Origin: a virus
Length of the DNA: 16,972 nucleotides
Virus record (IMG/VR): IMGVR_UViG_3300045988_145100
Coordinates: 128,001 to 144,972 of that record
Strand: one strand, 5' to 3'
Under the pieces are notes generated by a model that saw only the letters and a list, made by a program, of their open reading frames with translations, was not told the DNA's origin and made no database searches. Shown here piece after piece: positions 11,715 to 11,796 of the stretch. How positions within the stretch are numbered: position 1 is the first letter of the stretch; each line of letters begins with the position of its first letter. A program made the translations under genes and the position numbers.

Positions 11715-11796
11715 GACGCGGTGTCAGAGTGGTATTGACGCGGACTGCAACTCCGTTGAAGCCTTTGGGTGGTGGGTTCGATTCCCACTCGCGTCT
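11715..11796 (+). tRNA. Atypical tRNA or tRNA-like element, anticodon GCA (Cys), with class-II-like architecture (3-bp D-stem and a roughly 15-nt variable region)
   Basis: Acceptor gacgcgg/tcgcgtc. D-stem tca/tga. Anticodon stem gcgga/tccgt with loop ctGCAac. Canonical T-arm gtggg-ttcgatt-cccac. The 15-nt variable region tgaagcctttgggtg does not form a good variable-arm hairpin. Followed by a short terminator. Confidence 0.6.

What the first reader, a model, noticed from the sequence alone, without database searches (positions are those of the whole stretch)
11715..11796. Aberrant class-II-like tRNA with a Cys anticodon (GCA)
The element has a perfect acceptor stem and T-arm (GTGGG-TTCGATT-CCCAC), a 3-bp D-stem as in Leu/Ser/Tyr class II tRNAs, and an anticodon arm presenting GCA (Cys). 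However it also has a 15-nt variable region that cannot form a proper variable-arm helix.

tRNA-Cys is normally class I, so this is neither a normal tRNA-Cys nor a normal class II tRNA. It could be a non-canonical phage tRNA, a tRNA-derived regulatory RNA, or the tRNA-mimic module of a Y-RNA-like RNA. The last is suggested by its position 59 nt upstream of the Ro60-like gene.
Basis: seen in the sequence. Interest (0 to 1): 0.55.

Follow-up and report, generated by a model that had tools for sequence, protein, structure and literature searches.

The report
Phage cysteine tRNA with extra arm
This is a real phage cysteine tRNA gene with a small extra hairpin in its variable region, one of a widespread and apparently undescribed group of such phage tRNAs, and it is not the RNA partner of the neighbouring Ro60-like protein.

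Summary
Window 11715-11796 (+) is a genuine tRNA gene. ARAGORN calls it tRNA-Cys(GCA), 82 nt. Rfam's tRNA model scores 46 bits (E 4e-9) in a focused search.

The body is cysteine-type: GCA anticodon, discriminator U73, G1:C72. With the anticodon masked, it fits the standard tRNA-Cys profile (+8 bits) and no Leu/Ser/Tyr profile (negative).

It is GCC/GGU plus a tetraloop. A sister phage shows G·U changed to A-U, and another subfamily shows C-G → U·G → U-A.

The feature is not unique. In related phages 14 of 36 distinct tRNA-Cys genes have such an arm, against 6 of 114 for other short-variable-loop tRNA types. A pattern scan found 25 more in unrelated viral contigs.

The downstream gene (DUF2828) does model as a Ro60 fold. 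The Y-RNA reading of the tRNA fails: it has open acceptor ends, a canonical anticodon loop and no Ro-binding stem or motif.

Separate Y-RNA-like cassettes exist instead, with a terminal stem and an ACAGCAA motif. Two lie in this window (180-250 and 10947-11016).

Most likely it is a working Cys-decoding tRNA with a tolerated or selected extra arm. The arm's role is unknown.

The parts
11715..11796 (+). tRNA-Cys(GCA) gene, 82 nt, 7-bp acceptor / 5-bp T stem cloverleaf, with a long variable region; no encoded CCA
   Evidence: ARAGORN. Rfam tRNA model 46 bits, E 4.4e-9. Cloverleaf pairs counted across 15 relatives: 91% of cells paired, 18 of 24 pairs changed on both sides.
11747..11749 (+). Anticodon GCA within the loop CUGCAAC (U33, A37)
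11757..11771 (+). 15-nt variable region: UGAA spacer, 3-bp stem GCC (11761-11763) / GGU (11768-11770), UUUG loop (11764-11767), then one G
   Evidence: ARAGORN bracket string ssss(((vvvv)))s. L001 has GCC-UUCG-GGU and L002 has ACC-UUCG-GGU. Hairpin enrichment against shuffles.
11796..11796 (+). Discriminator U73, a major identity element for cysteinyl-tRNA synthetase; followed by UUC, not CCA
   Evidence: Sequence. U73 in 39 of 40 long-arm and 31 of 32 short-loop phage tRNA-Cys. Identity rule from PMC9976931.
11800..11815 (+). Hairpin GGCUAU-GAUA-AUAGCC in the 5' leader of the Ro-like gene, followed by UUUCUU; context, not part of the tRNA
   Evidence: Terminator-like scan. Fold -8.5 kcal/mol, z -3.6. 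Covarying equivalents before the ribosome-binding site in relatives: GGUUAU-GAAA-AUAACC, GGUAAU-GUAA-AUUACC, GGCUAU-GACA-AUAGCC.
11855..13330 (+). DUF2828/DUF7788 (vWA) protein, 491 aa, Ro60-like fold; neighbouring gene, context
   Evidence: Pfam. PHROG 850 'RNA-binding protein'. Model mean pLDDT 75.6; top 8 PDB fold matches are all Ro60.
10947..11016 (+). Y-RNA-like cassette: 9-bp terminal stem AAGACAUUU/AAAUGUCUU with UACAGCAAA directly after the 5' strand; a promoter-like site lies at 10906-10934 and tRNA-Pro starts at 11018; context, the better candidate partner RNA of the Ro-like protein
   Evidence: Model R1 65.9 bits, but this sequence is in the seed alignment.
180..250 (+). Second copy of the cassette (AGACAG...ACAGCAA...CUGUCU), abutting tRNA-Arg 250-325; context
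   Evidence: Model R1 39.3 bits, E 4e-6, not in the seed alignment..

Best explanation
The element is a functional phage-encoded tRNA-Cys. It has an ordinary bacterial-type tRNA-Cys body: G1:C72, a tRNA-Cys-type D arm, the anticodon arm GCGGA-CUGCAAC-UCCGU, a 5-bp T stem and U73. An extra hairpin of about 11 nt is inserted into the variable loop.

Inferred steps:
- It is transcribed with the tRNA cluster and the Ro-like gene.
- It is cut out by RNase P and a 3' processing enzyme.
- CCA is added by the host enzyme, because none is encoded.
- It is charged with cysteine by the host cysteinyl-tRNA synthetase through U73 and GCA.
- It reads UGU/UGC codons.

The extra arm is tolerated. Because it recurs and is maintained by compensatory changes, it is probably selected. 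Its purpose is not established.
For: Shown:
- Two tRNA detectors agree.
- The Rfam alignment gives no alternative register with a 4-5 nt variable loop. The 11 extra bases are placed as one insertion in the variable region.
- Across 15 long-arm relatives the acceptor and T stems are 100% paired, with double changes at 6 of 7 and 4 of 5 pairs.
- U73 is present in 39 of 40, G1:C72 in 34 of 40 and the loop CUGCAA(A/C) in 39 of 40 long-arm sequences, matching short-loop phage tRNA-Cys.
- U73 and GCA are the major CysRS determinants (PMC9976931).
- Isotype profile with the anticodon masked: short-loop tRNA-Cys +8.0 bits, Thr -2.1, Ser -4.2, Tyr -5.7. Cys is the best profile for 36 of 40 long-arm sequences. 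The method's leave-one-out accuracy is 450 of 630.
- Positions 3-49 are 83% identical to a canonical 74-nt Acinetobacter tRNA-Cys, with an identical anticodon arm. That tRNA has the variable loop GGAC.
- Orthologous position in sibling phages: L023 has a 4-nt variable loop and L024 a 15-nt one. Their first 26 nt are identical and the spacing from tRNA-Leu is the same.
- Variable-arm stem changes keep pairing: GCC/GGU to ACC/GGU, and CCC/GGG to CCU/GGG to CCU/AGG.
- Hairpin enrichment against shuffles.
Against: - There are no expression, processing or charging data.
- CCA is not encoded.
- The window's arm is weak: 2 G-C pairs and 1 G·U, with a UUUG loop where the 97%-identical phage L001 has the stable UUCG.
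- The thermodynamic fold alone does not give a cloverleaf.
- The effect of a variable arm on CysRS, which in E. coli is sensitive to the 15:48 core pair, is unknown.
- The isotype profile includes U73 and was trained on phage tRNAs only.
Confidence: 0.75

Rival explanations
1. The tRNA-like element is the tRNA-mimic module of a Y RNA, or a dedicated ligand, of the adjacent Ro60-like DUF2828 protein. On this reading it is not primarily a translation substrate.
For: - It lies 58 nt upstream of a Ro60-fold gene on the same strand.
- tRNA-Cys is the last tRNA before the DUF2828 gene in most of the 49 of 80 related loci that have one.
- Bacterial Y RNAs do mimic tRNA (PMC4201824).
Against: - It has open acceptor ends and a canonical anticodon loop. 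It lacks the closed acceptor-like stem and terminal Ro-binding stem of the bacterial Y RNA YrlA.
- No YrlA hit at E up to 10.
- The nearest + strand GNCGAA motif is at 5219.
- No hit from cassette model R1.
- A separate, much better Y-like candidate family exists, and in sister phages it sits between tRNA-Cys and the gene.
- In other phage families the tRNA nearest to DUF2828 is Met, Pro, Arg or Gly.
- Only 1 of 120 loci fetched through a long-arm tRNA-Cys pattern has DUF2828 within the locus.
Confidence: 0.05
2. It is chiefly an immune-evasion tRNA. The extra arm would make the phage copy resistant to, or a decoy for, a host tRNA-targeting nuclease or modifier that disables host tRNA-Cys, so translation continues during infection.
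For: - Long-arm versions are common in viral contigs: 25 tRNA-Cys among the first 120 pattern matches. The same pattern gave 2 among the first 120 in cellular genomes, one of which has its extra bases in the anticodon stem rather than a variable arm.
- Several phages encode both a standard and a long-arm tRNA-Cys (L119, L127, L142, L193, L196). The same pairing occurs for Thr, Asn, Glu, Asp and Met.
- The trait is isotype-biased: 14 of 36 for Cys against 6 of 114 for others, p = 3e-6.
- Phage tRNAs are known to evade anticodon nucleases through sequence changes (PMC10264068, PMC11464382; abstracts only).
Against: - No nuclease that targets tRNA-Cys or reads the variable loop is identified here.
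- Published escape mutations are in the anticodon loop, not the variable arm.
- This reading is compatible with, rather than exclusive of, ordinary decoding.
Confidence: 0.13
3. It is a missense tRNA. On this reading a class II tRNA (Tyr, Ser or Leu) kept its identity but acquired a Cys anticodon, so another amino acid would be inserted at Cys codons.
For: - The long variable arm is the hallmark of Leu, Ser and Tyr tRNAs.
- GUA to GCA is a single change.
- An environmental long-arm tRNA-Cys (L163) finds annotated phage tRNA-Tyr as its best BLAST matches, 76-79% identity.
- One sequence (L092) has A73.
Against: - The window tRNA has U73, not A73 or G73.
- Its body scores +8.0 on the Cys profile and -4 to -6 on Ser and Tyr.
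- Its 5' half matches a canonical tRNA-Cys.
- Its 3-bp arm is shorter than the phage tRNA-Ser variable regions seen here, which are 15-22 nt.
Confidence: 0.03
4. It is a decaying or neutral variant. On this reading a tRNA-Cys gene suffered a meaningless insertion and is no longer used.
For: - The window's arm loop is UUUG where L001 and L002 have UUCG.
- The fold z-score is unremarkable.
Against: - All stems are intact.
- Identity elements are kept in 39-40 distinct long-arm sequences.
- The arm stem shows compensatory changes.
- The same architecture (3-4 nt spacer, 3-bp stem, tetraloop, 1 nt) is kept across phages whose DUF2828 proteins are only about 55-65% identical.
Confidence: 0.04

Closest known systems
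Canonical bacterial tRNA-Cys (short variable loop), e.g. the 74-nt Acinetobacter gene in CAKLQF020000019
   Same: GCA anticodon, U73, G1:C72, a D arm of the form xCAG-AGUGGUxx-UGx and an identical anticodon arm GCGGA-CUGCAAC-UCCGU. Identity is 83% over positions 3-49. The masked-anticodon profile is best for Cys.
   Different: The variable region is 15 nt with a 3-bp stem and tetraloop, instead of 4 nt (GGAC). CCA is not encoded.
selC* tRNA-Cys (Mukai et al. 2017, PMC5389517)
   Same: A cysteine tRNA (U73, GCA) that carries a long variable arm. This is the only described tRNA-Cys with that trait that I found.
   Different: selC* has an 8-bp acceptor / 4-bp T stem, longer anticodon and acceptor stems, and resembles tRNA-Sec. 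It occurs in anaerobic bacteria next to selB*/cysS*. The window tRNA has a 7/5 arrangement, a 5-bp anticodon stem and a short arm. It is phage-borne and lies next to a DUF2828 gene.
Bacterial class II tRNA-Tyr
   Same: A short variable arm of 3-4 bp. GUA and GCA differ by one base. Some environmental long-arm tRNA-Cys have the Tyr-like layout (0-1 nt, stem, 3-4 nt) and find phage tRNA-Tyr as their best BLAST hits.
   Different: The window tRNA has the opposite layout (4 nt, stem, 1 nt) and U73 rather than A73. Its body scores -5.7 on the Tyr profile.
Bacterial Y RNA YrlA (Rfam RF02553; Chen et al. 2014, PMC4201824)
   Same: Encoded on the same strand close to a Ro60-fold gene, and contains D- and T-arm sequence features.
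   Different: YrlA has its ends in a Ro-binding stem with a GNCGAA motif, an acceptor-like stem closed by a loop, and no anticodon loop. The window element has none of these and does not match the model. The ACAGCAA cassettes, not the tRNA, have the YrlA layout. YrlA aligns to one of them full-length at 28.1 bits.
Phage tRNAs that escape host anticodon nucleases (e.g. T5; PMC10264068, PMC11464382)
   Same: Phage-encoded copies of host tRNA types carrying structural differences from the host tRNA. This is a possible functional analogy.
   Different: The published differences are in the anticodon loop. No variable-arm mechanism is described, and nothing was tested here. I read only the abstracts.

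Membership tests
tRNA (Rfam RF00005) | Cloverleaf scoring above the family's gathering score of 29 bits | tested here: met
   46 bits, E 4.4e-9, model positions 1-71. Missed by the default filters on the whole window. ARAGORN call.
tRNA (Rfam RF00005) | Stems supported by covariation in relatives | tested here: met
   Alignment A1, 15 sequences: 91.3% of cells paired against 66.6% in shuffles, and 18 of 24 pairs changed on both sides. Sliding the partner columns gave 34-49% paired.
tRNA-Cys | GCA anticodon in a 7-nt loop with U33 and a purine at 37 | tested here: met
   Loop CUGCAAC, GCA at 11747-11749.
tRNA-Cys | Discriminator U73, a major CysRS determinant | tested here: met
   U at 11796. 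Identity rule from PMC9976931.
tRNA-Cys | Body resembles tRNA-Cys rather than other isotypes once the anticodon is masked | tested here: met
   Profile score: Cys +8.0, Thr -2.1, Ser -4.2, Tyr -5.7 bits. This is a home-made profile with leave-one-out accuracy of 71%.
tRNA-Cys | Short variable loop of 4-5 nt (class I) | tested here: not met
   15 nt with a stem-loop.
tRNA-Cys | Aminoacylation with cysteine by CysRS; CCA addition | not testable with these tools
   CCA is not encoded; UUC follows U73.
Class II tRNA (Leu/Ser/Tyr) | Variable region longer than 10 nt that forms an arm | tested here: met
   15 nt; 3-bp stem and 4-nt loop.
Class II tRNA (Leu/Ser/Tyr) | Leu, Ser or Tyr anticodon with A73 (Leu, Tyr) or G73 (Ser) | tested here: not met
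   GCA and U73.
Class II tRNA (Leu/Ser/Tyr) | Body profile of Leu, Ser or Tyr | tested here: not met
   Ser and Tyr are negative; Leu is not among the four best-scoring profiles, all below the Cys score.
selC* tRNA-Cys | U73 plus GCA or UCA anticodon, with a long variable arm | tested here: met
   Definition from PMC5389517.
selC* tRNA-Cys | 8-bp acceptor / 4-bp T stem branch and longer anticodon stem | tested here: not met
   7-bp acceptor, 5-bp T stem and 5-bp anticodon stem.
selC* tRNA-Cys | Linked to selB*/cysS* genes | tested here: not met
   The neighbours are a 114-aa ORF with no family match and the DUF2828 gene.
Y RNA (YrlA type) | Encoded near, and on the same strand as, a Ro60-type gene | tested here: met
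   58 nt upstream of a gene whose model matches Ro60 structures.
Y RNA (YrlA type) | 5' and 3' ends pair into a Ro-binding stem with a GNCGAA motif | tested here: not met
   The nearest + strand GNCGAA is at 5219. The ends form a tRNA acceptor stem with a free discriminator.
Y RNA (YrlA type) | Acceptor-like stem closed by a loop; no functional anticodon loop | tested here: not met
   Open acceptor ends and a canonical anticodon loop.
Y RNA (YrlA type) | Match to Rfam RF02553 | tested here: not met
   No YrlA match at E up to 10 in 11650-11870.

The most novel reading that the evidence does not exclude
The extra arm may be a selected, phage-specific module rather than a neutral insertion. It would define an undescribed class of phage tRNAs of normally short-variable-loop isotypes (Cys far more than Lys or Gln; in other phages also Thr, Asn, Val, Glu, Asp and Met). 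These carry a 3-5 bp variable arm capped by a tetraloop and are often encoded beside a standard copy. On this reading the arm changes how the tRNA is seen by host tRNA-targeting defences or modification enzymes, or by the phage's own Ro-like RNA-protein complex.
Probability: 0.25. Interest if true: 0.8.

Novelty: new variant of a known kind. Interest (0 to 1): 0.52.

Why it matters
Textbook rules reserve long variable arms in bacteria for Leu, Ser, Tyr and Sec tRNAs. The only described cysteine exception, selC*, has a different acceptor/T-stem arrangement.

A recurrent arm-bearing tRNA-Cys with the standard 7/5 arrangement in phages shows three things:
- The variable loop of a short-loop tRNA type can be expanded without losing its identity elements.
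- This happens preferentially for Cys.
- Standard pipelines can miss such genes (the default Rfam filters did here) or label them without comment.

If the arm has a function, such as evading tRNA-directed immunity, it would add a new axis to the phage-host tRNA arms race. The arm is also a natural example of an insertion site that tRNA engineers could use.

That cassette may be the more important lead.

Tried and rejected
- **Alternative register with a 4-5 nt variable loop.** The optimal alignment to the general tRNA model puts all 11 extra bases in the variable region, and ARAGORN agrees. Rejected.
- **Near-identical phages in GenBank.** Megablast of 10900-13400 found none.
- **tRNA-Tyr remoulded to Cys (GUA to GCA, A73 to U73).** This was attractive for environmental sequences, whose BLAST best hits are phage tRNA-Tyr. 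It is rejected for the window: the Cys profile is best and the 5' half matches a canonical tRNA-Cys. Even among all long-arm sequences, 36 of 40 score best as Cys.
- **D-arm shape as a class II marker.** Rejected, because standard phage tRNA-Cys mostly have the same 3-bp stem and 11-nt loop.
- **A specific tRNA-Cys to DUF2828 functional link.** The adjacency holds only in the window's clade. Other phage families place other tRNAs next to the gene. Distance to the gene does not track arm length.
- **Sequence match of the DUF2828 protein to solved structures.** None was useful. A fold search was needed.
- **Literature.** Searches for DUF2828, for long-variable-arm tRNA-Cys in phages and for class II-like phage tRNAs found no description of this tRNA type.
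- **The hairpin at 11800-11815 as a plain terminator.** Relatives keep the hairpin without a U tract, so it is more likely a conserved leader element.
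Full report
**1. What is at 11715-11796**

ARAGORN reports five tRNAs in the window.

Rfam's tRNA model aligns to it full-length at 46 bits (E 4.4e-9; the family threshold is 29 bits) when the region is searched alone. The default-filter scan of the whole window missed it.

The cloverleaf drawn by ARAGORN is:
- Acceptor stem GACGCGG/UCGCGUC, with one G·U.
- Bases U8 and G9.
- D arm UCAG-AGUGGUA-UUGA.
- Anticodon arm GCGGA-CUGCAAC-UCCGU, with GCA at 11747-11749.
- A 15-nt variable region.
- T arm GUGGG-UUCGAUU-CCCAC.
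- Discriminator U at 11796.

CCA is not encoded. The Rfam alignment places all 11 extra bases as one insertion in the variable region.

**2. The variable region does form an arm**

ARAGORN pairs GCC (11761-11763) with GGU (11768-11770) around a UUUG loop, with 4 nt before the stem and 1 nt after it.

The two closest phages, found through the neighbouring protein, have GCC-UUCG-GGU (L001) and ACC-UUCG-GGU (L002). The outer G·U becomes A-U, and the loop is the stable UUCG.

Another subfamily (L015-L027) shows CCC-GUAA-GGG, CCU-GUAA-GGG and CCU-GUAA-AGG. That is a full C-G → U·G → U-A series.

For hairpins of at least 4 bp the figures are 18 observed against a mean of 7.8 and a maximum of 15. GAAA and other GNRA loops dominate.

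On a MAFFT alignment of 15 long-arm sequences, the whole cloverleaf plus arm has 91% of cells paired, and 18 of 24 pairs changed on both sides. Shuffled controls gave 67% paired and slid controls gave 34-49%. The acceptor and T stems are 100% paired.

**3. Which isotype it is**

The major determinants for cysteinyl-tRNA synthetase are U73 and the GCA anticodon (PMC9976931). The window tRNA has both, plus G1:C72.

The same features hold in 39 of 40 (U73) and 34 of 40 (G1:C72) long-arm sequences. That is indistinguishable from the 32 short-loop phage tRNA-Cys.

I built position-specific profiles for 20 isotypes from 678 distinct phage tRNAs, parsed into cloverleaf positions. The anticodon was masked and the variable region removed. 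Leave-one-out accuracy was 450 of 630. The window tRNA scores +8.0 bits on the short-loop Cys profile, -2.1 on Thr, -4.2 on Ser and -5.7 on Tyr. Cys is the best profile for 36 of 40 long-arm sequences.

BLAST against GenBank phage records finds, as best match, a canonical 74-nt tRNA-Cys. It lies on what is evidently an Acinetobacter chromosomal contig, flanked by folD and prmA. Identity is 83% over positions 3-49, the anticodon arm is identical, and its variable loop is GGAC.

In sibling phages L023 and L024, the tRNA-Cys at the same position (300 nt after tRNA-Leu) shares its first 26 nt but has a 4-nt versus a 15-nt variable region.

Together these results say the body is an ordinary tRNA-Cys and the arm is an insertion. 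It is not a converted Leu, Ser or Tyr tRNA.

**4. It is not a one-off**

The 80 related loci were chosen through the DUF2828 protein, not through the tRNA. Among them, 49 have a tRNA-Cys within 3 kb upstream, with lengths of 71-87 nt.

By distinct sequence, 14 of 36 tRNA-Cys have a variable region of at least 10 nt. For all other short-variable-loop isotypes the figure is 6 of 114: Gln(UUG), Lys(UUU), Gln(CUG) and a CUA-anticodon tRNA. Fisher p = 3e-6.

A pattern scan of viral contigs (CTGCAA, 22-28 nt, GGTTCRANTCC) was cut at 120 rows. It still yielded 25 more ARAGORN tRNA-Cys of 83-91 nt from unrelated metagenomes.

The same pattern in one genome per prokaryotic species was also cut at 120 rows. 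It gave two ARAGORN tRNA-Cys longer than 80 nt. One is on a 7.8-kb contig of a Mollicutes metagenome bin. The other has its extra bases in the anticodon stem, not in a variable arm.

Two layouts exist:
- The window's clade has 3-4 nt, a 3-bp stem, a tetraloop, then 1 nt.
- The environmental set mostly has 0-1 nt, a 3-4 bp stem, GAAA, then 3-4 nt. This is the tRNA-Tyr layout, and one such sequence finds phage tRNA-Tyr as its best BLAST hits.

The arm has therefore probably arisen more than once.

Some phages encode a standard and a long-arm tRNA-Cys side by side (L119, L127, L142, L193, L196). They do the same for Thr, Asn, Glu, Asp, Met and Val.

I found no paper describing this. The nearest is selC* tRNA-Cys, which has a long arm but an 8-bp acceptor / 4-bp T stem arrangement and longer stems, and is bacterial (PMC5389517, PMC7609411).

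**5. The neighbouring gene and the Y-RNA idea**

ORF 11855-13330 matches Pfam DUF2828 plus DUF7788 (a vWA domain) and PHROG 850 'RNA-binding protein'. Sequence search against the PDB found nothing useful.

An AlphaFold model built on 40 homologues has a mean pLDDT of 75.6. Its eight best PDB matches are all Ro60: Thermus phage phiLo, Deinococcus Rsr, and Xenopus and human Ro60. Probability is 1.00, E 2e-6 to 3e-4, and TM-score 0.38-0.51. 'Ro60-like' is therefore fair at the fold level.

The tRNA itself fails every structural criterion of a bacterial Y RNA (PMC4201824):
- No terminal stem formed by its ends other than a tRNA acceptor stem.
- No GNCGAA motif; the nearest + strand copy is at 5219.
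- An intact anticodon loop.
- No YrlA match at E up to 10.

DUF2828 genes lie beside tRNA clusters in many phage families. However, the nearest tRNA there is Met (Listeria, Campylobacter), Pro (FelixO1), Arg (Bacillus) or Gly (Enterococcus). The Cys adjacency is a trait of the window's clade only.

**6. What seems to be the real Y-like RNA (outside the finding's coordinates)**

In relatives, the spacer between the last tRNA and the DUF2828 start codon holds a structured element. Its design is a terminal stem of 8-9 bp starting with AAG and ending with CUUG, an (A/U)(A/U)ACAGCAA motif directly after the 5' strand, and a variable payload.

A strict scan of the window plus 80 related loci finds 79 copies on the gene's strand and none on the other strand. 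Shuffles gave 3-7 hits over both strands. Of 69 distinct copies, 41 abut a tRNA.

Some payloads are circularly permuted tRNA-like modules: a T arm, an acceptor stem closed by a loop, and a D arm. This is the YrlA layout. Rfam's YrlA model aligns full-length to one of them at 28.1 bits, with local E 2.6e-4. That is far below its threshold of 69 bits.

Other payloads are short hairpins. Several look like anticodon stem-loops, especially GACUUUUAAUC, the tRNA-Lys(UUU) loop.

I built a covariance model from 21 short copies. In its stem, 8 of 9 pairs change on both sides, although the copies had been selected for pairing.
- In the window it scores 65.9 bits at 10947-11016 (a seed sequence) and 39.3 bits, E 4e-6, at 180-250 (not in the seed).
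- It gives 68 hits, all on the + strand, in 663 kb of DUF2828-anchored loci.
- It gives 3 hits in 810 kb of viral loci not chosen for DUF2828. One of those three is on a contig that carries DUF2828.
- The hits include cultured phages from other families, directly beside the gene: a Staphylococcus Sextaecvirus (three tandem copies), two Bacillus phages, Campylobacter phage F360 (two copies) and an Enterococcus Schiekvirus.

In the window the order is:
- a promoter-like site (10906-10934);
- a cassette;
- tRNA-Pro, tRNA-His and tRNA-Gln;
- a 114-aa ORF;
- tRNA-Cys;
- a conserved leader hairpin (11800-11815);
- the Ro-like gene.

**7. Mechanism, with shown and inferred steps kept apart**

Shown:
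- The gene has a conserved cloverleaf.
- It has cysteine identity elements and a Cys-type body.
- Its structured extra arm is maintained by compensatory change.
- It recurs in phages.

Inferred: transcription with the cluster, processing, CCA addition by the host, charging by the host CysRS, and decoding of UGU/UGC.

Unknown: why the arm exists. The options are neutral tolerance, protection from host enzymes that read the variable-loop side of tRNA, or a handle for a phage factor. I give about 0.75 to 'working tRNA-Cys with an inserted arm'. Within that, I give about 0.25 to the arm having a selected, conflict-related role.

**8. Verdict**

The Y-RNA module suggestion is wrong.

It is a new variant of a known kind, of moderate interest in itself.

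Noticed in passing
window 10947-11016 and 180-250 (+); also L015:2809-2943, L069:28-158, L004:1563-1689, L032:663-785: A family of stem-closed small-RNA cassettes: AAG-stem, (A/U)(A/U)ACAGCAA, a variable payload, then stem-CUUG. They are strictly on the same strand as DUF2828 genes and often abut tRNAs. Some have a YrlA-like permuted tRNA module as payload. They are strong candidates for the Y-RNA partners of the Ro-like protein. Rfam has no match above threshold; YrlA aligns at 28 bits at best..
   Followed up: yes
L086:5529-5744 (Staphylococcus phage S-CoN_Ph2), L081:3863-3924 (Bacillus phage 2S-4), L085:3827-3913, L088:3820-3978 (Campylobacter phage F360), L087:3806-3877: The same cassette, with nearly the same stem and motif sequence (AAGACAC..ACAGCAA..GUGUCUUG), lies directly beside DUF2828 genes in cultured phages of unrelated families. 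In the Staphylococcus phage, part of it is annotated as a 30-codon hypothetical protein..
   Followed up: partly
window 10957-11008: Rfam's Dictyostelium Class I RNA model (consensus UUACAGCAAU) aligns here weakly (14.3 bits, E 1.8). Class I RNAs are about 60 nt, with a terminal stem and a conserved 11-nt motif next to the 5' stem strand (PMC7919456). That is the same design and nearly the same motif as the phage cassettes. It may be chance or convergence. It raises the question whether a DUF2828-type protein binds Class I RNAs..
   Followed up: partly
L003:1231-1289, L004:2749-2824, L032:2765-2833, L033:1049, L049:1401-1461, L053:988-1067: Many cassette payloads are hairpins that copy a tRNA anticodon stem-loop. 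GACUUUUAAUC (Lys UUU) is the most frequent; CUGCAAA (Cys), CUGGUAA (Thr) and CUGUAAA (Tyr) also occur. This suggests decoys or sensors for anticodon-directed enzymes..
   Followed up: no
window 11800-11815; equivalents in L004, L034, L047, L056, L015, L013, L046: A conserved hairpin lies just before the ribosome-binding site of the DUF2828 gene. One type is GGYUAU-GNNA-AUARCC, with covarying pairs. A second type is CUCCCUU-GUCC-AAGGGAG. It is probably a leader or regulatory element rather than a terminator..
   Followed up: partly
L206, L109, L190, L160, L148, L164, L193, L154, L142 (viral contigs): Large phage tRNA arrays contain long-variable-arm versions of many normally short-loop isotypes (Thr, Asn, Val, Glu, Asp, Met, Pro, Ile, Lys, Trp, Arg). 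Each often sits next to a standard copy with the same anticodon. In all, 87 of 580 parsed tRNAs of these isotypes were long-armed, in a set partly selected for long-arm tRNA-Cys..
   Followed up: partly
L001:2390-2474, L002:2402-2485 versus window 11172-11245: The two closest phages carry an 84-85 nt tRNA-Gln(UUG) with a variable arm, which ARAGORN draws as a 3-bp stem within GCCA-UUG-UGGC, and with U1:A72 and G73. The window has a normal 74-nt tRNA-Gln at the equivalent place..
   Followed up: no
window 13375-13448: A c-di-GMP-I riboswitch (62 bits) sits directly upstream of a CAP/SCP-domain ORF (13441-14364). An adhesin-like ORF follows (14415-15740). This would be a second-messenger-controlled accessory gene in a phage..
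   Followed up: no
window 11715-11796: Rfam's default speed filters lost this tRNA in the whole-window scan, although it scores 46 bits against a threshold of 29. Arm-bearing tRNAs of short-loop isotypes may be systematically under-annotated by filtered pipelines..
   Followed up: yes
L090:5896-6138 (Cronobacter phage S13): Two oversized 'tRNA' annotations (121 nt tRNA-Ser and 113 nt tRNA-OTHER) lie about 500 nt downstream of the DUF2828 gene. They may be another Y-like RNA type..
   Followed up: no
L047:1859-2212, L068:845-924; L055:262-350 and other loci: tmRNA matches (70-72 bits) occur in the tRNA regions of two related phages. Several phages carry tRNAs with a CUA (amber) anticodon, which ARAGORN labels 'Pyl'; one has a 20-nt variable region..
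   Followed up: no
window 1-63: A tRNA truncated at its 5' end lies at the window edge (Rfam 33 bits). tRNA-Arg(UCU) is at 250-325, so the tRNA region extends beyond the window..
   Followed up: no
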